DNA of 64,000 bases from Anaerolineae bacterium (lineage in GTDB: Bacteria > Chloroflexota > Anaerolineae > JACIWP01). Numbering within the stretch: position 1 is the stretch's first letter; every line of letters begins with the position of its first letter. Position numbers and translations under genes: made by a program. The notes beneath the pieces were generated by a model that searched no databases, was not told the DNA's origin, and saw only the letters and a list, made by a program, of their open reading frames with translations. This document shows, one piece after another, positions 4,899-44,347 of the stretch. The stretch lies in NCBI GenBank assembly GCA_028275445.1, contig JAPWUQ010000001.1, positions 3,161 to 67,160 of the forward strand, in the 5' to 3' direction.

Positions 4899-4905
4899 GA
4901 ATTAT

Positions 4906-4933
4906 ATTATAGCCGGCCGGCGCCGGCTGTCAA
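4906..4933 (-). promoter_or_regulatory. Sigma70-type promoter for the T-box/trp operon (TTGACA-N16-TATAAT)
   Basis: The minus strand reads cattTGACAgccggcgccggccggcTATAATataat. Perfect -35 and -10 hexamers with a 16-nt spacer. The predicted transcription start is near 4898. Confidence 0.55.
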
Positions 4934-4967
4934 ATGGGCGAATTTGAGGGCGTGGGACACGTGATCC

Positions 4968-5024
4968 GGTGACAGTCACTGATGACAGTCACCGGTGACA
5001 GTCACCTGGCAGGTGACTGTCACC
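4968..5024. repeat. Array of four 11-bp palindromic sites, GTGAC-N-GTCAC, between divergent promoters
   Basis: GTGACAGTCAC at 4969-4979. ATGACAGTCAC at 4982-4992. GTGACAGTCAC at 4995-5005. GTGACTGTCAC at 5013-5023. Spacings are 13, 13 and 18 bp. The same 13-mer GGTGACAGTCACC recurs at 15979-15991. Confidence 0.7.
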
Positions 5025-5045
5025 AAACGGATGATACACCAAATC

Positions 5046-5074
5046 GTGCAGTTCGAGCAAGCCTGTGGTATAAT
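5046..5074 (+). promoter_or_regulatory. Extended -10 promoter (TGGTATAAT) for the 5127 gene
   Basis: tgTGgTATAAT at 5064-5074. The -35 is weak (GTGCAG). Confidence 0.4.
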
Positions 5075-5126
5075 ATGCTAAACGTTTCGGCTCTGTCGGG
5101 TATCCGGATGCCAAGGAGAAAGGTAG

Positions 5127-5867
5127 ATGTCCGCCCCGTTCCGTTTCTTTCCCACGGGTGCGCTGATCTTGCTGGCCGTGATGACAGCGATCAGCGCCGT
5201 GGCCCTGGTGGTGCAGTGGCGAGAGGCGAAGCACGCCCCTTTTTTCCTCCTGCGCTATGAGGCGGCCAAGCGCGCTCGCCGGCTGTTCCTGCTCACGGTC
5301 CTGCTGGTCATTGGCATGGGAATCACCGGTTGGCTGACCATACAATACCTGAGACATCCGACGGGAGCGCCGGCCCGGCCCGCTGTGACGCCGGCGGTCT
5401 TGCCTACGCCGACGACGGCCGGCGGCGAGGCCGGCACCCAACCCCCTCCCACTCCCACGCACACCCGGATGCCCTCTCCCACTCCGACGCCTCCGGTGAC
5501 CCCGACCCCCTCCTCTCGTCCGATGACTCGCTCTCCTGGCGCCAGCTTTACCTTCATCACCTTTGCGCAGGGCGTATCCGCATCCAACGAACCCCTTATG
5601 CCAGGGCAAGTCTTCTCCCTCCCGCTGGAACGGCCGATCTATGCCTTTTTCCGCTTCGCGGAGATGGAAAACGGCACCCCATGGCGGGCAGTATGGCGCA
5701 AAGGCTCGGTGGAGCTGGTATCCGACGAGTTCCAATGGGAGTGGGGGCGCTACGGAACCGCATACGTGTATTTCCTGCCGCCGGGCGGGTTTGATGCCGG
5801 CGCCTATTCCCTGCAGTTGTATATCGGCGATGACCTGCAGTTCGAGGCCAGCTTCGAGGTCCAATAA
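5127..5867 (+). CDS. Hypothetical membrane-anchored protein with a Thr/Pro-rich linker and a C-terminal beta-rich domain
   Basis: 246 aa. AGGAGA RBS. A transmembrane segment lies near the N-terminus and a TPTPT linker follows. The C-terminal domain (..PIYAFFRFAEMENGTPWRAVWRK...YSLQLYIGDDLQFEASFEV) resembles the C-terminal domain of the lipoprotein at 32861-33265. Confidence 0.6.
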   Translation: MSAPFRFFPTGALILLAVMTAISAVALVVQWREAKHAPFFLLRYEAAKRARRLFLLTVLLVIGMGITGWLTIQYLRHPTGAPARPAVTPAVLPTPTTAGGEAGTQPPPTPTHTRMPSPTPTPPVTPTPSSRPMTRSPGASFTFITFAQGVSASNEPLMPGQVFSLPLERPIYAFFRFAEMENGTPWRAVWRKGSVELVSDEFQWEWGRYGTAYVYFLPPGGFDAGAYSLQLYIGDDLQFEASFEVQ

Positions 5868-8768: not shown

Positions 8769-9716
8769 ATGGGGACAGAGCACAAGCCTACTGTCGGGTT
8801 CATCGGGCTGGGCATCATGGGCAAGCCCATGGCGAGCAACCTCCTGCGCGCCGGCTATCCCCTGGTGGTGCACAACCGCAGTCGGGCGCCGGTGGATGAG
8901 CTGGCCGGCATGGGCGCCGAGCCGGCATGGTCCCCGCGGGAAGTGGCGGGGCGGGCGAGCGTCATTATCCTGATGCTGCCCAATTCCCCGCATGTACGGC
9001 AGGTCGCCGCCGGCCCCGACGGCCTGTTCGAGGGCATTGCGCGCGGCAGTGTCATTATTGACTGCAGTTCCATTTCCCCACGGGTCACGGCGGAGCTGGC
9101 AGGGCAGGCCGCCGGCCTGGGGGTGGACTGGCTGGATGCGCCGGTGACAGGTGGGCCGCAGGGAGCGACGTCCGGCACCCTTACGTTCATGGTGGGCGGG
9201 CCGGCGCAGGCCCTGGAACGCGTGCGCCCCATCCTGCACGCCATGGGCAAAACCATCGTGCACATCGGCGAACGGCCCGGGAGCGGCCAGATCGCCAAGG
9301 CCTGCAATCAGGTGGCCGTGGCACTGGAACTGCAGGCAGTATGCGAGTCCTTACTGCTGGCGCAGGCCGCCGGCGTCGACCCGGCCAAGGTCTACGAGGC
9401 CATGCGCGGCGGAGCCGCCGGCTCCTGGCAGATGGATGTGCAGGGGCCTAAAATCCTCCAGCGCCGGCATGACCCCATCTTCAAGGCCTGGATGCATCTC
9501 AAGGACCTGGAGATCGCGCTGGAGACGGCGAGCGATGCCCATGTGCCCCTGCCCGGGACGGCGCTGGTGGCCCAATTGTACCATTCCGTCCTGCGCGCCG
9601 GCCGCGGCGACGAGAACATCAGCACGCTCATCCATGCGCTGGAGGAGCTGGCCGGGGTGCGTGTGGCCGCCGGCGAGCCGGCGGAAGATAGCGCGCCGCT
9701 CCATCACTGCGACTAG
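8769..9716 (+). CDS. NAD(P)-dependent 3-hydroxyisobutyrate dehydrogenase / 2-hydroxy-3-oxopropionate reductase family oxidoreductase
   Basis: 315 aa. N-terminal Rossmann motif VGFIGLGIMGKPMASNL. HIBADH-family core (DAPVTGGPQGATSGTLTFMVGG, GSGQIAKACNQ). Confidence 0.85.
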   Translation: MGTEHKPTVGFIGLGIMGKPMASNLLRAGYPLVVHNRSRAPVDELAGMGAEPAWSPREVAGRASVIILMLPNSPHVRQVAAGPDGLFEGIARGSVIIDCSSISPRVTAELAGQAAGLGVDWLDAPVTGGPQGATSGTLTFMVGGPAQALERVRPILHAMGKTIVHIGERPGSGQIAKACNQVAVALELQAVCESLLLAQAAGVDPAKVYEAMRGGAAGSWQMDVQGPKILQRRHDPIFKAWMHLKDLEIALETASDAHVPLPGTALVAQLYHSVLRAGRGDENISTLIHALEELAGVRVAAGEPAEDSAPLHHCD

Positions 9717-9745
9717 CCGGCAGAGGGCCTGATAGGTCTCCCCCA

Positions 9746-11317
9746 ATGTGTCCCCTTTCTCGCCGGCGGGCTGTATCCTGGATGCTTCTGCTGGCAGTGT
9801 GGATTGCCCTGGCTTCGGGGCTTTCCCGCTCGTCCGCGGATGACGGCGCCCGCCCCCAACAGTGGATCGTCTACATCACCGCCGGCACCCCCCAGCTCCG
9901 CACCCAGCTCATCCGCCAGGGCCTGGATATCGTCTCCGTGGACCTGCAGGGAGTGACGGCCCGCCTGACGCCGGCCCAACTGCGGGCGCTGGAGCAGGCC
10001 GGCTTCCTCTGCCAGGTGCTGGAGGCCGGCGCCCAATCCATCCCAGTGGACGATCTCTACCACTCCCTCGCCGAGACCGAGGCGGAACTGCAGGCGGTCG
10101 CGGCCCAGCACCCCGACATCGCCCGGCTGGAGGTGATCCGCTGGAGCGTGGAGGGCCGGCCCATCTATGCCCTCAAGGTCAGCGACCGCGCGCAGGAGGA
10201 TGAATGGTCAGAGCCGGCGGTGCTTATCTTTGCCCTGGCGCACGCCCGGGAGCATCTGAGCACGGAGATGGCCCTGGACATTCTCCATATGCTGATCGAA
10301 GGGTATGGGCGATCGGGCGAGATCACCAACCTGGTGCATCAGCGCGAGATATGGATTATCCCCGATCTCAATCCCGACGGTGACGTGTACGATACGGAGA
10401 GCGGGTACTACCGATTCTGGCGCAAGAACCGCCGGCCCAACCCCGGCGGCTCCTTCGGGGTGGACCTGAACCGCAATTTCGGCTATCGCTGGGGATGCTG
10501 TGGCGGCTCCAGCCCATCCCCGTGGGAAGAGACCTACCGCGGGCCGGCGCCCTTCTCCGAACCCGAAAGCACAGCACTGCGCGATTTCGTCGAGTCCCAC
10601 CCCAACATCACCGTCTCGCTCAGCCTGCATTCGTACGGTGAATGGATCCTCTGGCCGTATGGGTACACGTACGAATCCCCGCCGGCCGACATGCGCCCAC
10701 AGGACTATGAGGCGTTCCGCCGGCTGGCCGGGGCCATGGCCGATCTGAACGGCTATCGCGCCATACAGGCCAGCCAGTTATACTTGGCCGATGGGACCGC
10801 CGATGACTGGCTGTATGGGGCGCAGGGGATCTTCGCCTTCACCTTTGAGCTGTATCCCCGCACGCCGAACCCAGGGTTCTATCCGCCCGGCACCGTCATC
10901 CCGGCGGAGACGGCGCGCAATCGGCCGGCGGTGCTGTATCTCCTGCGCATGGCGGACAATCCCCGCAAGGTGGTGGGAGAAGGGGGCGACCTGACCCCGC
11001 CGCAGGTGGCGCTGACTGCGCCGGCGGCCGGCGCATACGTTTCCGGTCCGCTTGCCATTTCGGCGGATGCCAGCGACGACATCGGGGTTACGCTGGTGGA
11101 GTTTATTGCGGATGGCCGGACGCTGGGACTGGATGAGGAGCCGCCTTTCGCGCTGGTGTGGGAGGATGTGCCGGCGGTGGGGAGCGCGCGGGTCTGGGTG
11201 CGTGCCTATGACGCCGGCGGGAACACGGCCGAATCCCCGCCCGTGCTGGTGCACTTTGCCGGCTCTCCGCCCGGCTACTTCCCCATTGTACAGCGCCAGT
11301 CCGTGACAAGCCCATGA
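9746..11317 (+). CDS. Secreted M14-family zinc carboxypeptidase with a C-terminal Ig-like domain
   Basis: 523 aa. The zinc ligand motif is HAREH (H-x-x-E, as in M14 peptidases). NPDG and HSYGE motifs are present. N-terminal signal peptide. The start codon is uncertain because no clear RBS was found. Confidence 0.8.
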   Translation: MCPLSRRRAVSWMLLLAVWIALASGLSRSSADDGARPQQWIVYITAGTPQLRTQLIRQGLDIVSVDLQGVTARLTPAQLRALEQAGFLCQVLEAGAQSIPVDDLYHSLAETEAELQAVAAQHPDIARLEVIRWSVEGRPIYALKVSDRAQEDEWSEPAVLIFALAHAREHLSTEMALDILHMLIEGYGRSGEITNLVHQREIWIIPDLNPDGDVYDTESGYYRFWRKNRRPNPGGSFGVDLNRNFGYRWGCCGGSSPSPWEETYRGPAPFSEPESTALRDFVESHPNITVSLSLHSYGEWILWPYGYTYESPPADMRPQDYEAFRRLAGAMADLNGYRAIQASQLYLADGTADDWLYGAQGIFAFTFELYPRTPNPGFYPPGTVIPAETARNRPAVLYLLRMADNPRKVVGEGGDLTPPQVALTAPAAGAYVSGPLAISADASDDIGVTLVEFIADGRTLGLDEEPPFALVWEDVPAVGSARVWVRAYDAGGNTAESPPVLVHFAGSPPGYFPIVQRQSVTSP

Positions 11318-15026: not shown

Positions 15027-15953
15027 ATGAACAGGGGCTGGGATGGCATTTGCAAGGTGGGCATCGTGCAGTTCATGATCTTCCCCGAGGTGATGCGCGG
15101 GGAGGGGCCGGTGGTGGAGACCATCACGAAGATCGCCGCGGATGACTTCTTCGGCGCCATGGAGATCACCCATATCGCGGACCCGGAGGCGCGCCGGCAA
15201 GTGGCCGGCATCCTCGCCGCCTCGCACATGGCCCTGGGCTTCGGCGCCCAGCCCATGCTCCTCGCGAACAAGCTGGACCTGAACCATCCCGAGGAGGCGG
15301 AGCGGCGCAAAGCGGTGGACCTGATGAAGGCGGCCATAGATGAAGCGGCCGAGCTGGGCATCGGGCGGGTGGCGTTTTTGAGCGGCAAGGACCCCGGCGA
15401 GGCCCAGCGCGAGCGCGCCCTGGACCTGTTGGTGGATTCCACAAAGGAGCTGTGCGAGTACGCCAAAAGCAGGGGTGTGTTCCTGATCTGTGAGACCTTC
15501 GATTATGACGTGGAGAAGCGCGCTCTGATTGGGCCGGCGCGGCTGGCGGCGCGCTATGCCGAGCGGGTGAAAGCGCAGTACGACAACTTCGGCCTGATGT
15601 ATGACTTGAGCCACGTCCCTCAGCTTCGCGAGGACTCGCTGGAAGGGCTGTCCATCCTGAAGCCGCACTTGGCGCACGTGCACGTGGGCAACTGCCAACT
15701 GCGCAACCCGAACCATCCTTCCTACGGCGACCAGCATCCGCGCTTCGGCATCCCCGACGGCGAGAACGATGTCCCCGAGCTGACAGCCTTCCTGAAAGCG
15801 CTGTTCCAGGTGGGGTATCTCCAGGAACATCCGAAGGGAGACCTGCCCGTCGTGGCCTTTGAGGTGAAGCCGATGAAGGGAGAGCTTTCGGAGGTGGTCC
15901 TGGCGAATGCCAAGCGCGTGTGGCGCGAGGCCTGGGGCCGGCTGGAGCTGTAG
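15027..15953 (+). CDS. Sugar phosphate isomerase/epimerase (xylose-isomerase-like TIM barrel) family protein
   Basis: Start placed at the ATG at 15027 with AGGAGGA RBS. TIM-barrel motifs are present (FLICETFDY, HVHVGNCQL...). The listed ORF begins 39 nt earlier and overlaps the previous gene. Confidence 0.8.
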   Translation: MNRGWDGICKVGIVQFMIFPEVMRGEGPVVETITKIAADDFFGAMEITHIADPEARRQVAGILAASHMALGFGAQPMLLANKLDLNHPEEAERRKAVDLMKAAIDEAAELGIGRVAFLSGKDPGEAQRERALDLLVDSTKELCEYAKSRGVFLICETFDYDVEKRALIGPARLAARYAERVKAQYDNFGLMYDLSHVPQLREDSLEGLSILKPHLAHVHVGNCQLRNPNHPSYGDQHPRFGIPDGENDVPELTAFLKALFQVGYLQEHPKGDLPVVAFEVKPMKGELSEVVLANAKRVWREAWGRLEL

Positions 15954-33458: not shown

Positions 33459-33502
33459 CCCCTTGTCAGCGGACCTTGATAACCCGTGGTGAGGCAACGG
33501 CC

Positions 33503-34462
33503 GTGTTCGAAATCTTATTCCTGGGGACATCCGCCGCCATTCCCACCCCAGAGCGCACCCCTTCGGCAACGCTCATCCGGTACGGCGGCCGGCATTATCT
33601 CGTGGACTGCGGCGAGGGAACCTATCAACGGCTGGCCCAGGCGCGCGCCGCCGGCCTGACCGACGCACAGCCCGGCGTCAACCTGCGGCAGGTCTTCTTC
33701 ACCCATGACCACCTGGACCATCTGCTGGGCATCGGCGGCCTGCTCTTCTCACTCCGCATGGCGAACCTCAAGCCCCGCCCGCGCCTGAGCATTTACGGCG
33801 GCAGTACCACCCTGGACCGGGTGCGCATCCTGGCCACCCTGATCCGCTCCCCGGAGGCGCGCGACCCGGGGGTGGACATCGAATATTTCGCCGTATCGCG
33901 CGGGGTGCTGATCGAGGATGGGGAGCTGGTCATCTCGGCGTTCCGCACCAACCACACCGCGCGGCCCTGCTTCGGCTATATCTTCGAGGAGCGGCCGCGC
34001 CGGCATTTCCGGCCGGAGCTGGCGGAGCGGTTGGGGGTGCCGGCCGGCCCCTGGCGCGAGCGCCTCATGGCCGGCGAGACCATCACCCTGCCCGACGGGG
34101 AAGTCATCCACCCGGACCAGGTCCTCTCCGACCCCGTGCCCGGCGCCAAGGTGGTCATCAGCGGCGACATCGCCTTCACCCACTCGCTGGCCCGCATCGC
34201 GCAGGGGGCCGACCTGCTCATCACCGAGGCGACTTTCTCCTCGGACCAGGCGCACCTGGCGGAGGCCAGCGGGCACATGACGCCGGCGCAGGCCGCCACC
34301 ATCGCCGCCGAGGCCAAGGTGCGCCTGCTGTGCCTGACCCACATCGGCGATGCCTATCGCGGGCGCGAGGCGGAACTGCTGGCGGAAGCGCGGGCTATCT
34401 TCCCGAACACGATACTGCCCTCCGATCTGGAGCGCATCACTGTGGAGCGCCGCGCTCCGTAG
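33503..34462 (+). CDS. rnz: Ribonuclease Z (metallo-beta-lactamase fold, tRNA 3' processing)
   Basis: VFEILFLGTSAAIPT...YLVDCGEGT...FFTHDHLDHLLGIGGL...GDIAFT match RNase Z / MBL motifs. GTG start at 33503 assumed. Confidence 0.8.
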   Translation: MFEILFLGTSAAIPTPERTPSATLIRYGGRHYLVDCGEGTYQRLAQARAAGLTDAQPGVNLRQVFFTHDHLDHLLGIGGLLFSLRMANLKPRPRLSIYGGSTTLDRVRILATLIRSPEARDPGVDIEYFAVSRGVLIEDGELVISAFRTNHTARPCFGYIFEERPRRHFRPELAERLGVPAGPWRERLMAGETITLPDGEVIHPDQVLSDPVPGAKVVISGDIAFTHSLARIAQGADLLITEATFSSDQAHLAEASGHMTPAQAATIAAEAKVRLLCLTHIGDAYRGREAELLAEARAIFPNTILPSDLERITVERRAP

Positions 34463-34622
34463 CCGGCGCATCCCGCTCGTCCAACAACCTCTCCAGCTCC
34501 TCCTCCAGCTCTTCCCACTGCTGGTGCAGGGCCGGCGGCACGGAATGCTTCGGCCAGCGCCGGCGCAGTTCCTCCAGCTCCTTCCGAATCTCAGCAATGC
34601 GCTGTTCCCGTTCCCGCTCCAT
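34437..34622 (-). CDS. Small coiled-coil hypothetical protein (about 61 aa)
   Basis: MEREREQRIAEIRKELEELRRRWPKH... The upstream part of the listed ORF is Arg/Gly-rich and unlikely to be coding. Convergent with rnz, overlapping it by 26 nt. Confidence 0.3.
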   Translation of the reverse strand: MEREREQRIAEIRKELEELRRRWPKHSVPPALHQQWEELEEELERLLDERDAPATERGAPQ

Positions 34623-34791
34623 ACCGCATACCTCCCGCCGGCACATATGTGGTGAAAAAAACCGCCTCAGACCATTGTGGGGCAAGCCGCCCCACCCCCG
34701 AATCCCTCTCCCGCCGGCGAAGAAGGGGGTATACCACCGCCTCACATCCTTGGGGGGCCAAAATGGGTGAACACTTCTCTGGACCACCCGT

Positions 34792-34820
34792 TTGACAAGA
34801 TCGCCCCGCTCGGATACAAT
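34792..34820 (+). promoter_or_regulatory. Promoter for the ferredoxin gene (TTGACA-N17-TACAAT)
   Basis: tTTGACAagatcgccccgctcggaTACAATatt. Confidence 0.5.
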
Positions 34821-34886
34821 ATTTCTACCCTATACCAGTATACCCTATATGGCGGGGCCTGTCAAGGCCCTGGGGAGGCTGGCCTG

Positions 34887-35111
34887 ATGAGCACGTGGCG
34901 CTGGAATACCCAGGAGAAGGATGTGCCGGTGGTGGACATAGAACGCTGTCGCGCCTGCCGGCGGTGTGCCGCCCGCACCGTCTGCCGCACCAAGGCCATT
35001 GTACAGCTTGACCCGGGCGAGCCGCCGATGATTGACGCCGGCCGCTGTTTCGGCTGTCTGGTCTGCGCGCCGGCCTGCCCCGCCGGCGCTATCGGCCCGC
35101 GCCGCGGGTAA
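34887..35111 (+). CDS. 2x[4Fe-4S] ferredoxin
   Basis: 74 aa. GGGGAGG RBS. CRACRRCAARTVC and CFGCLVCAPACP cluster motifs. Confidence 0.7.
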   Translation: MSTWRWNTQEKDVPVVDIERCRACRRCAARTVCRTKAIVQLDPGEPPMIDAGRCFGCLVCAPACPAGAIGPRRG

Positions 35112-35276
35112 CCCCAAGGCCTGTACCCTCCGCCCTCCCCCGTATCTCCGCAAACTCAACCGAAATTTGACCCCATCTTCATCAAATCTTAACAGCCCCT
35201 GGCTAAGATATATCTTGCGCGGGTGAACTCCCGGCAAATACACCTTTGGAGTTCCTGGCATGGAAAGGAGGTGGCA

Positions 35277-35831
35277 ATGACGAAACGACGAACAATCCTG
35301 GTAATCAGTGTGCTGGCGGTCATGGCGCTGGCCAGCCTGGTGCTGGTGGGAACGGCCCTGGCGCAGACGCCCACGCCGGCCCCGAGCACTCCCACCACGC
35401 CGGCGCCCTTCTGGGGCAAAGGCTGGGGGCGGGGCTTCGGATGCTGGGGCGGCAACTGGGCCGAGTTCGATGCCATCGCGAAGGCGTTGAACCTGACCCC
35501 CACTCAGCTCTTCGAACAGCTCCACAGCGGCAAGACCCTGGAGGAGATTGCGCAAGCCCAGGGTGTGGACATCAGCAAGGTCCAGGAGGCCGCGCAGGCC
35601 GCCCGGGTGCAGGCCATGAAGGACGCCATCAATCAGGCGGTGAAGGACGGCAAGATCACGCAGGATGAGGCGGATTGGTTACTGCAGGGGTTGGAGAAAG
35701 GATATCTGCCCGGCCGATGGGGCCGCGGGGGCTTTGGGCACGGCATGCGTGGATGGGGATTCAAGGCAACCCCCACCACTCCCAGCCGGCTGACGCCCTC
35801 CACCTCCAGCGGCACGGGCACCGCGCTGTAA
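35277..35831 (+). CDS. Secreted hypothetical protein with Gly/Trp-rich ends and a helical core
   Basis: ATG at 35277 with AAAGGAGG RBS. Signal peptide. Central LTPTQLFEQLHSGKTLEEIAQAQGVDISKV...KDGKITQDEADWLLQGLEKGY. Confidence 0.6.
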   Translation: MTKRRTILVISVLAVMALASLVLVGTALAQTPTPAPSTPTTPAPFWGKGWGRGFGCWGGNWAEFDAIAKALNLTPTQLFEQLHSGKTLEEIAQAQGVDISKVQEAAQAARVQAMKDAINQAVKDGKITQDEADWLLQGLEKGYLPGRWGRGGFGHGMRGWGFKATPTTPSRLTPSTSSGTGTAL

Positions 35832-35949: not shown

Positions 35950-36687
35950 ATGGAGCAGCCAGTCATTGACGTGCGGGATGTGGTGAAGATTTACCGTATG
36001 GGGAGCGTGGAGGTGCCGGCCCTGCGGGGGGTCAGCCTGCAGATCTTCCCTGGCGAGCTGGTGGCCATCATGGGCCCCTCGGGGTCCGGCAAATCCACGC
36101 TGATGAATATCCTGGGCTGTCTGGACCGTCCCACCTCCGGAACCTATTATCTGGATGGGCAGGAGGTCAGCCGGCTGGATGACAACGCGCTGGCCCACAT
36201 CCGCAACAAGAAAATTGGGTTTGTCTTTCAGACCTTCAACCTTCTGCCCCGCCTTTCGGCGCTGGCGAACGTGGAACTGCCCTTGATTTACGCCGGCGTC
36301 ACCAATGGGCGGGAGCGCTGTATCGCCGCGCTGGAGCTGGTGGGGCTGGGCGACCGGATCCATCATCGCCCCAACGAGCTTTCCGGCGGCCAACAGCAGC
36401 GCGTGGCCATTGCCCGCGCCCTGGTCAATGACCCCAGCATCATCCTGGCCGATGAGCCCACTGGCAACCTGGACTCGAAGGCCGGCCGCGAGATTATGCG
36501 CATCTTCCAGCAGTTGAACGCCGAACGCGGCATCACTATCGTGATCGTGACCCATGACGCGGATATCGCCCGGCACACGCGCCGCATCCTGCGCATGCAG
36601 GATGGGTTGATGGTGGCGGACGAACCCGTGGAGAACCCGCGCTGGCTGTTGGAAGAAGAGCCGGCGCCGGCGGCTGTCAGTTCCTGA
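35950..36687 (+). CDS. ABC transporter ATP-binding protein, MacB/LolD-type
   Basis: Walker [13 protein letters not shown] signature [15 protein letters not shown]. Walker [12 protein letters not shown]. Confidence 0.9.
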
Positions 36688-36709: not shown

Positions 36710-37174
36710 ATGAAACTCACACGCACGGTCCAATATATCATCGCGGCATTAGTGCTCATCATCGTCGCCGGCGGGAGCTTTTACGCCGGCACGCTGTACG
36801 GCAAGAACCAGGCGCAGGCCGCCCTGCGCGCCGCCAGACAGCGGGGCATGCCCTTCGCCCAGGGCACGCCGGGCGCCCGGCAGTTCCAGGGACGCGGCAT
36901 GGTCTTCGGCACCATTGAAGAGGTAGGCAGTGACGGCTCCCTAGTGGTGAAAGATAACAACGGTAATCGGGTGAAGGTGCGGGTCACCGACACCACTCTC
37001 ATCGAGAAGACCATATCGGCGGCGCCGGCGGACCTGCAGAGCGGTGAAGCGGTCATGATCTCCGGTACCAGCGAGCAGGACGGCAGTATCACGGCGCGTT
37101 CAGTGCAGGTTGTGCCGGCGGGCCGGCTGGGCTTCGGCGCTCCCGGCGCTCCGGGTACCGCCGGCGGACAATAA
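36710..37174 (+). CDS. Small membrane-anchored DUF5666-like protein
   Basis: 154 aa. N-terminal transmembrane helix. Repeated G(T/S)V.(E/S)V....L.V... motifs. GAAGGAGG RBS. Confidence 0.55.
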   Translation: MKLTRTVQYIIAALVLIIVAGGSFYAGTLYGKNQAQAALRAARQRGMPFAQGTPGARQFQGRGMVFGTIEEVGSDGSLVVKDNNGNRVKVRVTDTTLIEKTISAAPADLQSGEAVMISGTSEQDGSITARSVQVVPAGRLGFGAPGAPGTAGGQ

Positions 37175-37186
37175 GGAGCGTGGGAG

Positions 37187-38848
37187 ATGAAGCGCGGAGC
37201 GGTCCGGGCATTATGGATCGTGGGATTAGTGATCCTGCTGGGGGCCGGCGGGTTCTGGTTCTATCAGAGCCGGGCAGCATCGCAGGGCACCAGCAGTTCC
37301 ACCTCCAGCGGCACCTACACCCAGATCGTCGAGGTGACCCGCGGCGACCTGACGGCAACGGTGAGCGTGGTAGGCCAGCTCCAGGCGGTGCGCCAGGTGG
37401 AGATGACCTTCGAGCACATGAGCGGGACGGCGGAGCTGAAGGAATTGAACGTGAAGGTGGGGCAGGAGGTCAAGGCCGGCGACCTGCTGGCCGCCATCGA
37501 CCCCACCCCCTACCAGCAGGCGCTGGAGGAAGCCCAGGCCGCCCTCCAGGCGGCCGAGGAAACGCTCAAAGACCTGGAGACCCCCCCGACCGAGCTGGAG
37601 ATCGCCCAGGCCGACCTGGCCGTCGCCAAGGCCCAGGTCCAGCTCGAACAGGCCAGGGCCAAGCTGGAGGATCTACTCCATCCGGATATCGCCGAGCTGG
37701 AGACCAAACTGGCGCAGGCGAAGACCAGCCTGGCCCAGGCGCAGGATAACCTGGCCTCCCTGCAGCAGCAGGAATCATCCTTTAAAGACAAGCTCCAGAA
37801 GCTTCTGGATGCCGAGGCCAAGGCCTATGACCAGTACAGCCGGCTGGCGAGCGAACAGTACTCCGACGAGTACCACCAGGACCGCCTGCAGTTGGCGCTG
37901 AACAAATTCTTGGACGCCCAAGACGCCCGCATCACCGCCGAGATACAGCGGCAGATCGACCTGCTGAAGGCACAGCTCCAGGTTATCCAGGCGGAGCAGT
38001 CGGTGGCGGATGCGGAGGAGGCGTTGGCGGAGGCGCGCGCCGGCGGCGATGCGGTGGCGGTAGCCCAAGCCCGGGTGGCGGTGCAGGAGGCAGAGGTGGC
38101 CCTGCAGAAGGCCCAGCAGGACCGCGACGACCTGACGAAAGGGCCGGATGAGACAAAGCTGGCAACCGCCCGGGCGGATGTGGAGAAGAAGCGGCTGGCG
38201 TTCCAGGACGCCCAGCAGGCGCTGGAGGGCACCAAGCTGGTGGCGCCGTTCGACGGCACGGTGCTGGCCGTGAACGTAAGCGCCGGGGACCGGGTCTCCC
38301 CCAACACGGTGGTCCTGGTGCTGGCCGACCTGCGGGAGCTGGAGGTGGTGGCCTCGGTGGATGAAACAGCCATCCGCCAGGTGCAGGCAGGCCAGCCGGC
38401 GGTGATCACCTTCGACGCCCTCCCCGGCAAGGAGTTCCAGGGCCAGGTGAAGGAGGTGCCCCTGCAGGGCCAACTCCAGGGAGGCGTCACCGTGTATGCC
38501 GTCCCCATCACCCTGGAGGGGGCGGAGGGACAGCCCCTGCTGGTGGGCATGACCGCGAACGTGGTCATCCAGGTGGGGCAGGTGAAGAATGCCCTGCTGG
38601 TGCCGGCGCTGGCCCTGCAGAGGGTGAGCGGGGCCTATCAGGTGCTGGTGGACGCCGGGAACGGTGAGACGGTGGCAGTGCCGGTGGAGGTGGGCTTGAG
38701 CGATGGGACGTACACCCAGATCGTGCGCGGGCTGAACGAGGGCGACCGCGTGGTGGTGCAGATGACCGCCGGCCAGTCCAATCTCTTCGGACAGCTTCGG
38801 GGCATGATGGGCGGCATGATGGGCTTCACCGGCTCGCGGATGAGGTAA
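37187..38848 (+). CDS. HlyD-family membrane-fusion (periplasmic adaptor) protein, copy 1
   Basis: 553 aa. N-terminal transmembrane segment. Long coiled-coil (QQALEEAQAALQAAEE...). C-terminal beta-barrel domains (VVASVDETAI...AVITFDALPGKEFQGQV...) typical of MacA/HlyD adaptors. Confidence 0.85.
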   Translation: MKRGAVRALWIVGLVILLGAGGFWFYQSRAASQGTSSSTSSGTYTQIVEVTRGDLTATVSVVGQLQAVRQVEMTFEHMSGTAELKELNVKVGQEVKAGDLLAAIDPTPYQQALEEAQAALQAAEETLKDLETPPTELEIAQADLAVAKAQVQLEQARAKLEDLLHPDIAELETKLAQAKTSLAQAQDNLASLQQQESSFKDKLQKLLDAEAKAYDQYSRLASEQYSDEYHQDRLQLALNKFLDAQDARITAEIQRQIDLLKAQLQVIQAEQSVADAEEALAEARAGGDAVAVAQARVAVQEAEVALQKAQQDRDDLTKGPDETKLATARADVEKKRLAFQDAQQALEGTKLVAPFDGTVLAVNVSAGDRVSPNTVVLVLADLRELEVVASVDETAIRQVQAGQPAVITFDALPGKEFQGQVKEVPLQGQLQGGVTVYAVPITLEGAEGQPLLVGMTANVVIQVGQVKNALLVPALALQRVSGAYQVLVDAGNGETVAVPVEVGLSDGTYTQIVRGLNEGDRVVVQMTAGQSNLFGQLRGMMGGMMGFTGSRMR

Positions 38849-40468
38849 CGGGGGAGAAGAGCTATGAAGCACTGGAAGCGCATTCTGGCGATCGTCATTG
38901 GCATAGCGGTGGTTGCAGCCGGCGGGTTCTGGTTCTATCAGAGCCGGGCGGCGTCGCAGGGCACCAGCAGTTCCACCTCCAGCGGCACCTACACCCAGAT
39001 CGTCGAGGTGACCCGCGGCGACCTGACGGCAACGGTGAGCGTGGTAGGCCAGCTCCAGGCGGTGCGCCAGGTGGAGATGACCTTCGAGCACATGAGCGGG
39101 ACGGCGGAGCTGAAGGAATTGAACGTGAAGGTGGGGCAGGAGGTCAAGGCCGGCGACCTGCTGGCCGCCATCGACCCCACCCCCTACCAGCAGGCGCTGG
39201 AGGAAGCCCAGGCCGCCCTCCAGGCGGCCGAGGAAACGCTCAAAGACCTGGAGACCCCCCCGACCGAGCTGGAGATCGCCCAGGCCGACCTGGCCGTCGC
39301 CAAGGCCCAGGTCCAGCTCGAACAGGCCAGGGCCAAGCTGGAGGATCTACTCCATCCGGATATCGCCGAGCTGGAGACCAAACTGGCGCAGGCGAAGACC
39401 AGCCTGGCCCAGGCGCAGGATAACCTGGCCTCCCTGCAGCAGCAGGAATCATCCTTTAAAGACAAGCTCCAGAAGCTTCTGGATGCCGAGGCCAAGGCCT
39501 ATGACCAGTACAGCCGGCTGGCGAGCGAACAGTACTCCGACGAGTACCACCAGGACCGCCTGCAGTTGGCGCTGAACAAATTCTTGGACGCCCAAGACGC
39601 CCGCATCACCGCCGAGATACAGCGGCAGATCGACCTGCTGAAGGCACAGCTCCAGGTTATCCAGGCGGAGCAGTCGGTGGCGGATGCGGAGGAGGCGTTG
39701 GCGGAGGCGCGCGCCGGCGGCGATGCGGTGGCGGTAGCCCAAGCCCGGGTGGCGGTGCAGGAGGCAGAGGTGGCCCTGCAGAAGGCCCAGCAGGACCGCG
39801 ACGACCTGACGAAAGGGCCGGATGAGACAAAGCTGGCAACCGCCCGGGCGGATGTGGAGAAGAAGCGGCTGGCGTTCCAGGACGCCCAGCAGGCGCTGGA
39901 GGGCACCAAGCTGGTGGCGCCGTTCGACGGCACGGTGCTGGCCGTGAACGTAAGCGCCGGGGACCGGGTCTCCCCCAACACGGTGGTCCTGGTGCTGGCC
40001 GACCTGCGGGAGCTGGAGGTGGTGGCCTCGGTGGATGAAACAGCCATCCGCCAGGTGCAGGCAGGCCAGCCGGCGGTGATCACCTTCGACGCCCTCCCCG
40101 GCAAGGAGTTCCAGGGCCAGGTGAAGGAGGTGCCCCTGCAGGGCCAACTCCAGGGAGGCGTCACCGTGTATGCCGTCCCCATCACCCTGGAGGGGGCGGA
40201 GGGACAGCCCCTGCTGGTGGGCATGACCGCGAACGTGGTCATCCAGGTGGGGCAGGTGAAGAATGCCCTGCTGGTGCCGGCGCTGGCCCTGCAGAGGGTG
40301 AGCGGGGCCTATCAGGTGCTGGTGGACGCCGGGAACGGTGAGACGGTGGCAGTGCCGGTGGAGGTGGGCTTGAGCGATGGGACGTACACCCAGATCGTGC
40401 GCGGGCTGAACGAGGGCGACCGCGTGGTGGTGCAGATGACCGCCGGCCAGTCCAATCTCTTCGGACAG
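37244..40468 (+). repeat. Direct tandem repeat: two units of about 1.55 kb (37244-38794 and 38918-40468, period 1674 bp), roughly 99.9% identical
   Basis: Direct comparison shows only 2 mismatches in the first 60 nt and identical sequence thereafter. The ORF track shows identical antisense ORFs in both units. Confidence 0.8.
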
Positions 40469-40531
40469 ATGCGCGCCTTCATGGGACCGGAAGCGGGCGG
40501 ACCGCCGCCGGCGGCCCCAGGCGCCCGGTAA
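38864..40531 (+). CDS. HlyD-family membrane-fusion protein, copy 2. Near-identical tandem duplicate of copy 1.
   Basis: 555 aa. Identical to copy 1 from residue about 20 to about 535. Differs only in the N-terminal transmembrane segment and the C-terminal tail. Confidence 0.85.
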   Translation: MKHWKRILAIVIGIAVVAAGGFWFYQSRAASQGTSSSTSSGTYTQIVEVTRGDLTATVSVVGQLQAVRQVEMTFEHMSGTAELKELNVKVGQEVKAGDLLAAIDPTPYQQALEEAQAALQAAEETLKDLETPPTELEIAQADLAVAKAQVQLEQARAKLEDLLHPDIAELETKLAQAKTSLAQAQDNLASLQQQESSFKDKLQKLLDAEAKAYDQYSRLASEQYSDEYHQDRLQLALNKFLDAQDARITAEIQRQIDLLKAQLQVIQAEQSVADAEEALAEARAGGDAVAVAQARVAVQEAEVALQKAQQDRDDLTKGPDETKLATARADVEKKRLAFQDAQQALEGTKLVAPFDGTVLAVNVSAGDRVSPNTVVLVLADLRELEVVASVDETAIRQVQAGQPAVITFDALPGKEFQGQVKEVPLQGQLQGGVTVYAVPITLEGAEGQPLLVGMTANVVIQVGQVKNALLVPALALQRVSGAYQVLVDAGNGETVAVPVEVGLSDGTYTQIVRGLNEGDRVVVQMTAGQSNLFGQMRAFMGPEAGGPPPAAPGAR

Positions 40532-40546
40532 AAGGAGGGCTATACC

Positions 40547-41770
<1,224 letters not shown>

Positions 41771-41784
41771 GCAGGAGCGAGGTA

Positions 41785-42315
41785 ATGCGCACGTCTGACG
41801 GGCCTGGGCGCCGGCATGCCGGCGCCCCGTTCCCGGCCTGGATCAACAAGGTGCTGGCACGGCTCAGGACGGCGACGCGGCAGGAACTGCGAGAAGCCGG
41901 CGCGGCTGGTGGGGGAGGTCCCCAGCAGGAGGCGGGCGGCTTGCCGGCGGTCATCGGCCTGGTTACAATAGATGCATGCCCGGTGCGGGCGCTGTCCCTG
42001 GCTCTTCAGGAGGCCGGCTTTCGGGTGCGCCGGCTGGGCGAGGATGTGGATCATCTGCCGGCGGAGGAGTTGGCGGATGTATCGGTGTTCCTCGTATGCG
42101 GAAGCGTCTGTCCGGAGGTGTATCAGGCCCTGCGCCGGCGCAGTTCCGCCCGCATCCTGGCGCTGGTGCCGGGCGGCGAGGGGGAGGTGTTGGAGGCCCT
42201 GAGCGCCGGCGCGGATGACTCGCAGAAGCTGGGCATCAGCGAGCAGGAGATCGCGGCGCGCATCTACGCGCTCCTGCGCCGCGCCGGCAGGCCGCGTTCT
42301 GCAGGACAGGTGTGA
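41785..42315 (+). CDS. Receiver-like (pseudo-receiver) domain protein lacking the phospho-acceptor Asp
   Basis: VIGLVTIDAC...DVSVFLVCGS...ILALVPG...ARIYALLRR follows the CheY-fold pattern, but the LDLMLP aspartate position reads FLVCGS. ATG at 41785 with GGAG RBS. Confidence 0.45.
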   Translation: MRTSDGPGRRHAGAPFPAWINKVLARLRTATRQELREAGAAGGGGPQQEAGGLPAVIGLVTIDACPVRALSLALQEAGFRVRRLGEDVDHLPAEELADVSVFLVCGSVCPEVYQALRRRSSARILALVPGGEGEVLEALSAGADDSQKLGISEQEIAARIYALLRRAGRPRSAGQV

Positions 42316-42321
42316 GGCGGT

Positions 42322-43014
42322 ATGAACAAGAGCATTTTGGTGGTGGATGACGACCCGAAGATCGTGGAAATCGTCTCGCTGTACCTGAAGCGGGAGGGCT
42401 ATCGGGTGCTGGCCGCCTACGACGGGAGGCAGGCGCTGGAGATGGCGCGCGAGAAAAGGCCCGACCTCATCGTGCTGGACCTGATGCTGCCGGGGCTGGA
42501 CGGCATGGATGTCTGCCGGCTGTTGCGCGACGAGTCCGACGTCCCCATCCTGATGCTGACCGCCCGCGCCTCCGATGAGGATAAACTGCGCGGCTTCGAC
42601 GTCGGGGCGGACGATTACCTGACCAAGCCCTTCAACCCGCGCGAGCTGGTGGCGCGCGTGCGCGCCATCCTGCGGCGTGCAGAGGGAGAACAGGAACCGC
42701 CGCGCGATCTGCGCTTCGGAGACCTGGAGATCAGCGTGATGCGGCACGAGGTGCGCCTGCGCGGCAGTCCGGTGAATTTGACGCCCACCGAGTTTCGCAT
42801 CCTGACGACGATGGCACAGGAGCCGGGCCGGGCTTTCAGCCGGGTGGAACTGCTGGAGCGCGCCTTCGGGTACGATTATGAGGGGTTGGAGCGGACGGTA
42901 GATGTGCATATCATGAACATCCGCCGCAAGATCGAGCCGGAGCCGCGCCGGCCGCGCTATATCGTCACCGTGCCCGGCGTGGGCTACCGCTTTGAGGGGG
43001 AACATGTGGAATAG
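42322..43014 (+). CDS. OmpR-family response regulator
   Basis: [12 protein letters not shown]...[14 protein letters not shown]...[20 protein letters not shown] plus a winged-helix C-terminal part. Confidence 0.9.
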
Positions 43015-44347
43015 CCTGCGTGTGCGGCTGTTGATGGCCATTATCCTGGTGGTGCTGGTGGCGGTAACGGTCACCGCGGTGGTGGCCGGCCGGCGCACCA
43101 CCGGCGAATTCCAGCGCTACGTGGCGCGGGGAGGGCCGATTCCTTTCGCGCGCTATGCCGGCTTCCTGGCCCGCTCCTATGACCTGCGCCGGAGCTGGGA
43201 AGCGGTACAGCCGGAGGTCGAGCGCATCGGGCAGATCAGCGGGATGCGGGTGGTGGTGGCGGACGCGGAAGGCCGCATCGTGGCGGATTCGGAGAGCGCG
43301 CTGATCGGCAAATCGGCCGCCGGCCGCTGGCAGGTGCCGGCCGTCGAGATACTCGTCGGCGGCCGGCCGGTGGGCTTCCTGTACATGATCCCGCCGACCG
43401 AGCCTCGCGAGTCGGAACGGGCCTTCCTGCAAGCCGTCAACCGCTCCATTTTGTTCGGCGCGCTGTTCGCCGGCGCGGTGGCGATACTGGTCACCCTGGG
43501 CATGTCGGACCGCATCCTGCGGCCCATCGAGCGGCTGACGGCCGCCGCCCAGCGCATGGAGAAGGGGGACCTCTCGGTGCGGGTGCCGGTGGATTCGCAG
43601 GATGAAATCGGCAAGCTCGCCCATGCCTTCAACGCTATGGCCAGCAGTCTGGCCATGCAGGAACAGCTTCGCCGCAATCTGGTCAGCGATGTGGCCCATG
43701 AACTGCGCACGCCGCTGACCAACCTGCGGGGATACCTGGAGGCCGTGCGGGATGGGCTGATACAGCCGGACGCCGGCCTCATCGACAACCTCTACGAGGA
43801 GACCATGCTGTTGAATCGGCTGGTTTCGGACCTCCATGAGCTGGCTCAGGCGGAGGCCGGCCAGCTCAACCTGGTGCGCCGGCCGGTGCGGGTGGATGAG
43901 ATCGTGCACCGCGTGGCTGAGGCGTTCAACTGGCAGGTGGAAAGCAAGGGGCTGACACTGCGGGTGGATGTGCCGGCGGACCTGCCGCTGGTGGACGTGG
44001 ACCCGGAGCGCATCGGACAGGTCCTGCGCAACCTGCTCTCCAACGCCATCCTGCACACGCCGGCCGGCGGCGAGATCGATATCGTCGCCCGCGCCGGCGG
44101 AAAATGGGTGACGGTAGCGGTCAAGGACACCGGGGAGGGCATCCCGCCAGAGCATCTGCCCTTTGTCTTCGACCGCTTCTATCGGGTGGACAAATCCCGC
44201 TCGCGCCTGACCGGCGGCGTCGGCCTGGGGCTGGCCATTGCCAAGCAGTTGGTCGAGGCCCACGGCGGCGACATTCACGTGGAAAGCCGGGTCGGAGAGG
44301 GCAGTACCTTCACCTTCACCCTCCCTATCGCGGAAGATAAGGGCTAA
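42992..44347 (+). CDS. Sensor histidine kinase (transmembrane, HAMP, HisKA, HATPase)
   Basis: H-box [12 protein letters not shown]1 and G2 boxes ([25 protein letters not shown]). Confidence 0.85.

What the first reader, a model, noticed from the sequence alone, without database searches (positions are those of the whole stretch)
37244..40468. Near-perfect 1.67-kb tandem duplication of the MacA/HlyD-like adaptor gene inside a MacB efflux operon
The two adaptor genes (37187-38848 and 38864-40531) are identical over about 1.55 kb. Only 2 mismatches were seen near the 5' end of the repeat. They diverge only in their N-terminal membrane anchors and C-terminal tails. The operon reads ATPase, DUF5666-like, adaptor, adaptor, permease. 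Such identity implies a very recent duplication, ongoing gene conversion, or an assembly artefact. If real, it gives two adaptors with different membrane anchors and tails for one pump. The locus is followed by a pseudo-receiver plus an OmpR regulator and histidine kinase pair that probably controls it.
Basis: seen in the sequence. Interest (0 to 1): 0.55.

Follow-up and report, generated by a model that had tools for sequence, protein, structure and literature searches.

The report
Homogenised old adaptor-gene pair in MacB operon
The two near-identical efflux-pump adaptor genes are not a fresh duplication but an ancient gene pair, normally differing in the tip of a long helical hairpin, that has been overwritten by gene conversion here or mis-joined by the assembler.

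Summary
Window 37244-38794 and 38918-40468 (1551 bp, offset 1674) differ at two synonymous sites, inside an ATPase / DUF5666 / adaptor / adaptor / MacB-permease operon.

The "very recent duplication" reading is wrong. Related Chloroflexota (Anaerolineae-type) genomes normally carry two tandem adaptor genes in this operon: 30 loci hold 31 pairs. Every pair combines one "alpha" and one "beta" hairpin-tip cassette of about 116 aa. Cassettes are 40-58% identical within a class and about 25% between classes.

Outside the cassette the paralogs are homogenised to very different degrees in different lineages (3' block 68-99.9% nt identity). That is recurrent gene conversion.

The window and one 99.3%-identical contig are the only alpha/alpha pairs. 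Other contigs of the same species carry the beta cassette in the same frame, behind either membrane anchor. The 123-bp junction occurs in four independent assemblies.

The two-gene layout and the homogenised flanks are therefore real. The identity of the central ~350-480 bp is either a real cassette conversion or short-read mis-phasing across the 412- and 791-bp identical flanks. I rate these about even. Long reads would decide.

The parts
35950..36687 (+). ABC transporter ATPase (MacB-type NBD encoded as a separate gene)
   Evidence: Pfam ABC_tran, E=8e-36. It is syntenic in the related loci.
36710..37174 (+). Small DUF5666 protein, a frequent companion of this operon
   Evidence: Pfam DUF5666, E=3e-9. 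It sits between the ATPase and the adaptors in most related loci.
37187..38848 (+). Adaptor gene A1 (553 aa): anchor N1, shared block R5, alpha hairpin cassette, shared block R3, Gly/Met-rich tail T1
   Evidence: Pfam HlyD_D23, HlyD_3 and Biotin_lipoyl_2. MacA is the best PDB match by sequence and by fold. AF2 mean pLDDT is 84.
37187..37243 (+). N1: copy-specific N-terminal membrane anchor of A1
   Evidence: It differs from N2 in 33 of 57 alignment columns. AF2 places a helix at residues 3-30. It resembles the N-terminus of the single adaptor in relative L002.
37244..37659 (+). R5: 5' shared block (first halves of the beta-barrel and lipoyl domains, proximal hairpin). Identical to 38918-39333 except at 37276 and 37279.
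   Evidence: In strain L001 copy 2 keeps 20 private differences at the equivalent of 37267-37339.
37660..38003 (+). Alpha hairpin cassette of A1 (aa ~158-273, the distal segment of the hairpin including the tip)
   Evidence: The boundaries come from the site table against the beta-bearing same-species copies L052 and L004. It belongs to the alpha class found in 30 related loci. AF2 places the hairpin at aa 107-347 with its tip at aa 223-227.
38004..38794 (+). R3: 3' shared block (proximal hairpin, second halves of the lipoyl and beta-barrel domains, membrane-proximal domain). Identical to 39678-40468.
   Evidence: This is the block most often homogenised in relatives, at up to 99.85% nt identity.
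38795..38917 (+). Unique 123-bp junction: tail T1 of A1, its stop codon, a 15-nt spacer with a GGAG ribosome-binding site, and anchor N2 of A2
   Evidence: The sequence is shown. It is identical or differs by one base in the window, L001 and L004. L052 carries T1, the spacer and the start of N2 up to its contig end.
38864..40531 (+). Adaptor gene A2 (555 aa): anchor N2, R5, a second alpha cassette (39334-39677), R3, Pro-rich tail T2 (40469-40531)
   Evidence: A tblastn search with the alpha cassette hits 39332-39679 at 100%. T2 resembles the tail of the single adaptor in L002.
38950..38953 (+). Two copy-2-specific synonymous bases (38950 and 38953, paired with 37276 and 37279). They are relics of an older A2 sequence.
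   Evidence: The same G/G alleles occur in copy 2 of L001, L004 and the window, and A/A occurs in every copy 1.
40547..41770 (+). MacB-type permease (periplasmic core domain plus FtsX)
   Evidence: Pfam MacB_PCD, E=2e-48, and FtsX, E=3e-21.
41767..42315 (+). 182-aa receiver-like protein without the acceptor Asp (pseudo-receiver)
   Evidence: It has no Pfam hit. It is 30% identical over 116 aa to the receiver of the adjacent regulator. It is conserved in L002/L006, L017 and L053.
42322..44347 (+). OmpR-family response regulator (42322-43014) and HAMP/HisKA histidine kinase (42992-44347), the probable regulators
   Evidence: Pfam. The same pair follows the permease in L015, L019, L023, L033 and L053.

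Best explanation
The locus is a MacB-type ABC exporter operon of an Anaerolineae-like Chloroflexota bacterium. As in its relatives, it encodes two paralogous, membrane-anchored, MacA-like adaptor proteins with a very long helical hairpin. The pair is ancient. In relatives one copy carries an 'alpha' distal hairpin segment and the other a 'beta' segment. This suggests that the adaptor ring is built from both kinds, probably alternating as in the two-adaptor pump TriABC (inferred, not shown). The parts that sit next to the pump (barrel, lipoyl, membrane-proximal domain, proximal hairpin) are repeatedly homogenised by gene conversion between the tandem copies. The tip cassette, the anchors and the tails stay different. 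In this species both flanking blocks are already identical. In the window contig the cassette is identical too, so both genes carry alpha. The most likely history is recombination anchored in the identical flanks that copied the alpha cassette over the beta cassette. The minimal tract is 39259-39736 if A2 was the recipient, or 37585-38062 if A1 was. Shown: the old pair, the two cassette classes, the mosaic homogenisation, and beta cassettes in the same species. Inferred: the hetero-oligomer, the direction of conversion, and that alpha/alpha exists in the cell rather than only in the assembly. The confidence given (0.5) is for the full statement including a real alpha/alpha state. The 'ancient pair homogenised by gene conversion' part alone I hold at about 0.9.
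For: The pair is old and conserved.
- Thirty related loci carry 31 tandem pairs between the ATPase/DUF5666 genes and the permease. Every pair has one alpha and one beta cassette and none is homotypic: 24 alpha-beta loci, 5 beta-alpha loci, and one locus with two alpha-beta operons.
- Many contigs contribute one hit to the alpha-query list and one to the beta-containing query list, judged by matching contig lengths.

Evolution is concerted.
- Within-locus identity profiles show 8-20% identity at the hairpin tip but runs of 84-222 identical residues in the C-terminal half in L013, L015, L017, L018, L019, L030 and L044.
- Nucleotide identity of the 3' block ranges continuously from 68% to 99.85%, and of the 5' block from 65% to 96%. 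No nucleotide similarity is ever detectable in the cassette.
- Long-read-style MAGs such as L017 also show 95-96%.

Within this species:
- Copy 2 of strain L001 (99.3% identical to the window) keeps 20 private differences at the equivalent of 37267-37339. The window has lost these except for two bases, so tract ends differ between strains.
- L004 has T1-junction-N2 followed by a beta cassette.
- L052 has N1 followed by the same beta cassette, then T1 and N2.
- This beta cassette is about 86% identical in nucleotides to that of the related species L002, the same as the flanking orthologous divergence.
- L005 joins a beta-flank allele (37636-37638) to an alpha cassette 22 nt away, which is a fine-scale mosaic.

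Protein identity: the MacA-like fold and domains are supported. TriABC is the documented two-adaptor precedent (PMC4338810, PMC4446572).
Against: The alpha/alpha state occurs only in two contigs, the window and L001.

All six same-species contigs are valid walks through one assembly graph in which two anchors enter a shared R5, two cassettes follow, a shared R3 follows, and two tails leave:
- alpha/alpha (window, L001)
- N1-beta-T1-N2 (L052)
- T1-N2-beta (L004)
- N1-alpha-T2 (L003, L005)

R5 (412 bp) and R3 (791 bp) are longer than usual short-read inserts, so the phasing could be arbitrary.

Five strain-specific substitutions are present in both copies of each strain. Frequent conversion predicts this, but so does an assembler traversing one collapsed node twice.

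Every copy-to-copy difference in the window and in L001 lies next to the unique flanks, which fits both readings.

A homotypic pair contradicts the otherwise universal heterotypic rule (0 of 31 pairs). No read data were available.
Confidence: 0.5

Rival explanations
1. Cassette-level assembly artefact. The organism really has one alpha and one beta adaptor, like all relatives. The short-read metagenome assembler dropped or collapsed the beta branch and traversed the R5-alpha-R3 node twice through the T1-N2 loop. That produced an artificial 1551-bp identity.
For: Same-species contigs disagree on which anchor precedes which cassette, and some skip the loop altogether. L052 has N1-beta, L004 has N2-beta, the window and L001 have alpha behind both anchors, and L003/L005 have N1-alpha-T2. 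Several contigs of the protein cluster begin inside R3, as expected at an unresolved repeat. There are 0 homotypic pairs among 31 in relatives. All strain SNPs are shared by both copies.
Against: Two independent assemblies of different strains gave the same alpha/alpha path. The alpha/beta branch spans about 480 nt (37585-38062) with equal expected depth. From my recollection of assembler defaults, which I did not test, a branch of that size is not normally removed unless it has much lower coverage. The 5' tract boundary really differs between the window and L001, which shows that conversion is active at this locus. L005 shows a read-scale recombinant.
Confidence: 0.42
2. Very recent tandem duplication of a single ancestral adaptor gene, with rapid divergence of the inner ends.
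For: The closest other species (L002, adaptor 70% aa identity) has one adaptor with an N-terminus like A1 and a tail like A2. Some same-species contigs show a single N1-alpha-T2 gene.
Against: A simple duplication would make the full 1674-bp unit identical. Instead 123 bp of junction are unrelated at the nucleotide level while the rest is 99.9% identical. Two adaptor genes are the conserved ancestral state in 30 loci. The L002 gene carries the beta cassette, so it is best read as a deletion product of recombination between two copies. Its ATPase and regulator genes are each split into two ORFs. Beta cassettes exist in this species.
Confidence: 0.03
3. Whole-duplication assembly artefact: only one adaptor gene exists and the second copy was created by the assembler.
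For: Single-copy contigs L003 (49 kb) and L005 exist for the same species.
Against: The junction 38795-38917 is unique sequence. It encodes a distinct tail, a stop codon, a ribosome-binding site and a distinct membrane anchor. It recurs in four independent assemblies. An assembler cannot invent it. Synteny in 30 related loci shows two genes.
Confidence: 0.02

Closest known systems
MacA of the MacAB-TolC pump (E. coli; PDB 5nik, 3fpp; A. actinomycetemcomitans 4dk0)
   Same: It is the best match in the PDB by sequence and by fold. It shares the domain set (membrane-proximal, beta-barrel, lipoyl, alpha-hairpin), the N-terminal membrane anchor, and pairing with a MacB_PCD/FtsX permease and an ABC ATPase.
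   Different: The hairpin here is about 240 aa (aa 107-347), which from memory is roughly twice that of MacA. The ATPase is a separate gene. There are two adaptor genes. No outer-membrane partner was looked for, and many Chloroflexota are thought to lack an outer membrane (from my own knowledge, not tested).
TriA/TriB of the TriABC-OpmH pump of Pseudomonas aeruginosa (PDB 6vej, fused TriAB)
   Same: Two different adaptor genes lie side by side in one operon, both are needed, and they are thought to form a trimer of heterodimers (PMC4338810, PMC4446572). A 6vej chain matches the C-terminal half by sequence.
   Different: TriABC uses an RND transporter, not MacB. TriA and TriB are 36% identical overall (PMC4338810). 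In the Chloroflexota pairs the divergence is concentrated in the distal hairpin, and the rest is homogenised up to identity. In the window even the hairpin is identical.
MacAB-like pumps of single-membrane bacteria (Spr0693-0694-0695 of S. pneumoniae, PDB 5xu0; YknXYZ of Bacillus)
   Same: These are adaptors with a hairpin working with a MacB/FtsX-type transporter in cells without TolC. 5xu0 is a fold match (rank 47), and YknX is described in PMC4446572.
   Different: They have a single adaptor gene and much shorter hairpins.
Concerted evolution of tandem or duplicated bacterial genes by gene conversion (for example tuf genes and rRNA operons; from my own knowledge)
   Same: Paralogs are more alike within a genome than orthologs are between genomes. 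Tracts are mosaic with variable ends.
   Different: Here a sharply bounded internal segment is exempt in 31 of 31 pairs in relatives. That points to selection for, or a homology barrier around, two distinct hairpin tips.

Membership tests
MacA-type periplasmic adaptor (membrane fusion protein) of MacB ABC exporters | Lipoyl, beta-barrel and membrane-proximal domains with an inserted alpha-helical hairpin | tested here: met
   Pfam HlyD_D23, HlyD_3 and Biotin_lipoyl_2. The AF2 model has a hairpin at aa 107-347 flanked by beta domains. Foldseek gives MacA 5nik_D at E=8.5e-22. phmmer gives MacA at E=2e-25.
MacA-type periplasmic adaptor (membrane fusion protein) of MacB ABC exporters | Encoded next to a MacB-type permease (MacB_PCD + FtsX) and an ABC ATPase | tested here: met
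   Pfam on 35950-36687 and 40547-41770. The same order occurs in more than 30 related loci.
MacA-type periplasmic adaptor (membrane fusion protein) of MacB ABC exporters | Hexameric ring that docks on an outer-membrane channel of the TolC family | not tested
   No TolC-like gene was searched for. Oligomer state cannot be determined with these tools.
Two-adaptor (TriAB-like) hetero-oligomeric pumps | Two distinct adaptor genes adjacent in one operon | tested here: inconclusive
   Relatives meet this: 31 of 31 pairs are heterotypic alpha/beta. The window has two genes, but they differ only in the anchor and the tail. Same-species contigs carry beta.
Two-adaptor (TriAB-like) hetero-oligomeric pumps | Both adaptors required and present in one complex | not testable with these tools
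   This needs genetics or purification of the complex.
Two-adaptor (TriAB-like) hetero-oligomeric pumps | RND-type inner-membrane transporter | tested here: not met
   The transporter is MacB/FtsX-type with a separate ABC ATPase. The locus works like TriAB at most by analogy and is not a member.
Concerted evolution by gene conversion between paralogs | Paralogs within a genome are far more similar over part of their length than the same regions are between genomes, with the other parts divergent | tested here: met
   The 3' block is 86-99.85% identical within L007, L013, L015, L017, L018, L019, L020, L030 and L044. The baseline in other loci is about 68-77%, and between species it is about 50% aa. 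In the window the figure is 99.87% over 1551 bp, with the anchors differing in 33 of 57 columns.
Concerted evolution by gene conversion between paralogs | Tract boundaries differ between closely related strains (mosaicism) | tested here: met
   L001 copy 2 keeps 20 differences that the window has lost. Two relic bases remain in the window. L005 is a mosaic at the cassette edge.
Recent simple tandem duplication | The whole repeat unit is identical, including both sides of the junction, and the locus is single-copy in relatives | tested here: not met
   Of the 1674-bp unit, 123 bp are unrelated between the copies. Relatives have two genes.

The most novel reading that the evidence does not exclude
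The Chloroflexota MacB pump uses an obligate alpha/beta hetero-hexameric adaptor tube about 170 A long. Selection keeps only its distal hairpin segments distinct, while everything else is homogenised. Because the cassettes sit between identical flanks, strains can switch between alpha/beta, alpha/alpha and beta-bearing versions by conversion. This would be a natural cassette-swap system that changes the tip of the exit tube, and so its partner or cargo. The window would be a living alpha/alpha variant.
Probability: 0.2. Interest if true: 0.7.

Novelty: new variant of a known kind. Interest (0 to 1): 0.45.

Why it matters
For this window, the practical message is that the striking identity does not mark a new duplication. 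It should not be used for dating or copy-number inference until long reads confirm it.

The wider result is more interesting. A whole clade of Chloroflexota carries MacB-type exporters with two adaptors that are kept different only in the distal half of an unusually long hairpin, while the rest is swept clean by gene conversion. This works as a natural domain-swap experiment. It suggests that the non-equivalence of the two adaptors resides in the hairpin tip, and that the pump-contacting domains are interchangeable.

It also gives a testable model for hetero-oligomeric adaptor rings outside RND pumps, in bacteria that may lack a TolC-type partner.

Tried and rejected
- Exact look-ups of A2 (also listed as P0001) in the contig index found nothing. 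The window's own 67.5-kb contig could not be retrieved.
- A scan of metagenome contigs for a 26-nt junction word found nothing, because that collection evidently lacks L001 and L004.
- A protein search with the beta cassette alone returned no scored hits, not even the known L002 protein. I treat that as uninformative.
- Rfam at gathering thresholds found nothing in the window.
- I first read the locus as 'old paralogs, with A2's beta overwritten by A1', based on L004. I had to soften this when L052 showed beta behind the A1 anchor.
- I tried to infer the ancestral cassette order from tail types. Tails follow gene position rather than cassette class in relatives, and they are inverted in this species. 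The order remains open.
- I considered that functional constraint alone explains the identical C-terminal halves. I rejected this because identity holds at the nucleotide level (up to 99.85%).
- My reasoning about which branch lengths an assembler would collapse rests on my memory of assembler defaults, not on a test.
Full report
**1.

At an offset of 1674 bp, window 37244-38794 equals 38918-40468 (1551 bp). The only mismatches are at 37276 and 37279, and both are synonymous. This is the only direct repeat of at least 60 nt in the 64-kb window.

The two ORFs are 37187-38848 (553 aa) and 38864-40531 (555 aa). They differ in three places:
- the first 57/54 nt, which encode the membrane anchor (33 of 57 alignment columns differ)
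- the last ~54-63 nt, which encode a disordered tail
- the 15-nt spacer between the genes

Pfam confirms the gene order: ABC ATPase, DUF5666, adaptor, adaptor, MacB_PCD/FtsX permease, a 182-aa ORF, an OmpR-type regulator, and a HAMP/HisKA kinase. The 182-aa ORF is weakly receiver-like and shows no acceptor Asp in the alignment.

**2. The second gene is not an assembly invention**

The 123 bp between the repeats (38795-38917) are unique sequence. They encode a Gly/Met-rich tail (T1), a stop codon, a GGAG ribosome-binding site and a second, different anchor (N2). The same junction occurs in three further independent metagenome contigs of the same species:
- L001, a 47-kb contig 99.3% identical to the window
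- L004, 1.8 kb
- L052, 2.4 kb, which reaches only the first part of N2 before the contig ends

**3. It is not a recent duplication**

A scan of one genome per species returned 45 loci, nearly all from Chloroflexota MAGs labelled Anaerolineae, Anaerolineales, Caldilineales or Ca. Amarolinea. A metagenome scan added more. Mapping the operon proteins onto these loci shows that two tandem adaptor genes between the ATPase/DUF5666 and the permease are the rule.

I extracted the 116-aa segment in which the window adaptor differs from the single adaptor of the closest other species (L002, 70% aa identity). I used both versions as probes. Every pair turned out to hold exactly one window-like ("alpha") and one L002-like ("beta") segment:

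| Arrangement | Loci |
|---|---|
| alpha then beta | 24 |
| beta then alpha | 5 |
| two alpha-beta operons in one locus | 1 |
| homotypic (alpha-alpha or beta-beta) | 0 |

- Within a class the segment is 40-58% identical across these lineages. Between classes it is about 25%.
- The pair and its two cassette classes therefore predate the radiation of these lineages.
- A few loci bounded on both sides have a single adaptor, of either class: L006 (= L002), L022, L029, L040 and L055.

**4. What the cassette is**

An AlphaFold model of A1 has mean pLDDT 84.
- It gives a membrane helix at residues 3-30, the usual adaptor beta domains, and a hairpin spanning residues 107-347 with its turn at 223-227.
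- Each arm is about 115 residues, with symmetric breaks at 132-135/319-321 and 165-167/285-288.
- If the arms are extended, that is roughly 170 A. This length is an inference, not a measurement.
- The cassette (aa ~158-273; nt 37660-38003 and 39334-39677) is essentially the distal segment, including the tip.

The nearest solved structures are MacA in MacAB-TolC, by both sequence and fold.

**5. Concerted evolution is the family habit**

Within-locus profiles show the tip at 8-20% identity in every pair. The C-terminal half, however, is 100% identical over 84-222 residues in L013, L015, L017, L018, L019, L030 and L044.

At the nucleotide level:
- The 3' block ranges continuously from 68% to 99.85% identity between the two copies, for example L044 with 1 mismatch in 673, L013 98.2%, L030 96.4%, L020 95.6% and L017 94.9%.
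- The 5' block ranges from 65% to 96%.
- The cassette never aligns.

This continuum across lineages, with tracts that always stop at the cassette, is the signature of recurrent gene conversion. Either selection or a lack of homology protects the two tips.

**6. The window's species**

Here both flanking blocks are already identical between the copies: R5 (37244-37659) and R3 (38004-38794).

Strain L001 shows that the tract ends move. Its copy 2 keeps 20 private differences at the equivalent of 37267-37339. The window has lost all but the two bases at 38950 and 38953.

The beta cassette exists in this species. L004 reads T1-junction-N2-R5-beta-R3. L052 reads DUF5666-N1-R5-beta-R3-T1-junction-N2. 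The two beta copies differ from each other at six sites, so they come from different strains. They are about 86% identical to the L002 beta cassette, the same as the flanking orthologous divergence, so beta is resident in the lineage and not imported.

Beta carries linked flank alleles at 37585, 37636-37638 and 38062. L005, which carries alpha, has the 37636-37638 beta-flank allele only 22 nt from its alpha cassette. That is a recombinant at read scale.

L003 (49 kb) and L005 show a single N1-alpha-T2 gene. The related species L002 has N1-beta-T2. Both are what a deletion by recombination between the two copies, or an assembler skipping the loop, would produce.

**7. The caveat that matters**

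All six same-species contigs are legitimate walks through one graph: two anchors lead into R5, then two cassettes, then R3, then two tails.
- R5 (412 bp) and R3 (791 bp) exceed typical short-read inserts.
- The contigs disagree about which anchor precedes beta.
- The five substitutions that separate the window from L001 inside the repeat are each present in both copies. Very frequent conversion predicts that, and so does an assembler passing twice through one collapsed node.
- Alpha/alpha is otherwise unseen (0 of 31 pairs).

In favour of alpha/alpha being real:
- Two independent assemblies of different strains produced it.
- The alpha/beta branch is long (about 480 nt between the linked SNPs).
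- Conversion is demonstrably active at this locus.

Without reads I cannot separate the two readings. I put a real alpha/alpha state at about 0.5 and cassette mis-phasing at about 0.4.

**8. How it probably works**

The operon encodes a MacB-type exporter whose adaptor ring is normally built from two paralogs. By analogy with TriA/TriB, the adaptor unit would be a heterodimer and the ring a trimer of dimers (PMC4338810, PMC4446572).
- The pump-facing domains are interchangeable and are kept identical by conversion.
- The distal hairpin segments are non-equivalent.
- The different anchors and tails persist because they lie outside the homologous blocks.

This assembly model is an inference from conservation, not a demonstration. 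If the window's alpha/alpha state is real, the ring is homotypic in its hairpins. Single-adaptor relatives suggest this can be tolerated.

**9. Comparison with what is known, and novelty**

The proteins are clear members of the MacA-like adaptor family. The locus is not a member of the TriABC family, because its transporter is not RND, but it may work like it.

Three full-text literature searches found TriABC and fused adaptors as the known cases of non-identical adaptor pairs. They found nothing on two-adaptor MacB pumps in Chloroflexota or on domain-resolved concerted evolution of adaptors. These were limited searches, so this is not proof of absence.

I rate the locus as a new variant of a known kind. 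The finding as originally phrased (a fresh duplication) is not supported.

**10. Scores**

Interest is 0.45. The window feature itself is uncertain at its centre and belongs to an ordinary efflux operon. The family-wide alpha/beta rule with homogenised flanks is a neat, testable result for people who study efflux adaptors.

Noticed in passing
window 15207-15298 (-): ARAGORN calls a 92-nt tRNA-Ala(CGC), which is unusually long. Rfam at gathering thresholds reports no tRNA or any other RNA family in the window. It may be a false call or an atypical or intron-bearing gene.
   Followed up: no
L002 (= L006) 4764-5497 and 9466-10156: In the related species that has only a single beta adaptor, the ABC ATPase and the OmpR regulator are each split into two ORFs. 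Either the operon is decaying after losing one adaptor, or the MAG has indel errors.
   Followed up: partly
window 38795-38848 and 40469-40531; L008, L009, L019, L023, L053: The C-terminal tails come in two kinds: 'GGPPP'-type and Gly/Met-rich. In relatives the kind follows gene position (upstream GGPP-type, downstream Gly-rich) whichever hairpin class the gene carries. In the window species the positions are inverted. This hints at past cassette swaps or a rotation of the array.
   Followed up: partly
L037 1106-8680: One Anaerolineales MAG has two successive alpha-beta adaptor sets on one contig: alpha, beta, permease, alpha, beta. The whole module was duplicated there while remaining heterotypic.
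   Followed up: no
window 41767-42315: The 182-aa ORF after the permease is 30% identical to the receiver domain of the adjacent regulator, but the acceptor Asp falls in an alignment gap. Similar ORFs follow the permease in L002/L006, L017 and L053. It appears to be a conserved pseudo-receiver of unknown role.
   Followed up: partly
L005 equivalent of window 37636-37638 and 37708-37728: The single-copy contig L005 joins the beta-linked flank allele (Val to Ser) to an alpha cassette. Inside alpha it also carries three private SNPs, one of which matches beta. This suggests very short conversion patches.
   Followed up: partly
window 33476-35831; L001 4319-6645: The operon is preceded in all close relatives by the same set of genes: a metallo-beta-lactamase-fold protein (precomputed Pfam includes Anti-Pycsar_Apyc1), a small 4Fe-4S ferredoxin, and a 184-aa protein without Pfam hits. 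I did not examine whether they are functionally linked to the pump.
   Followed up: no
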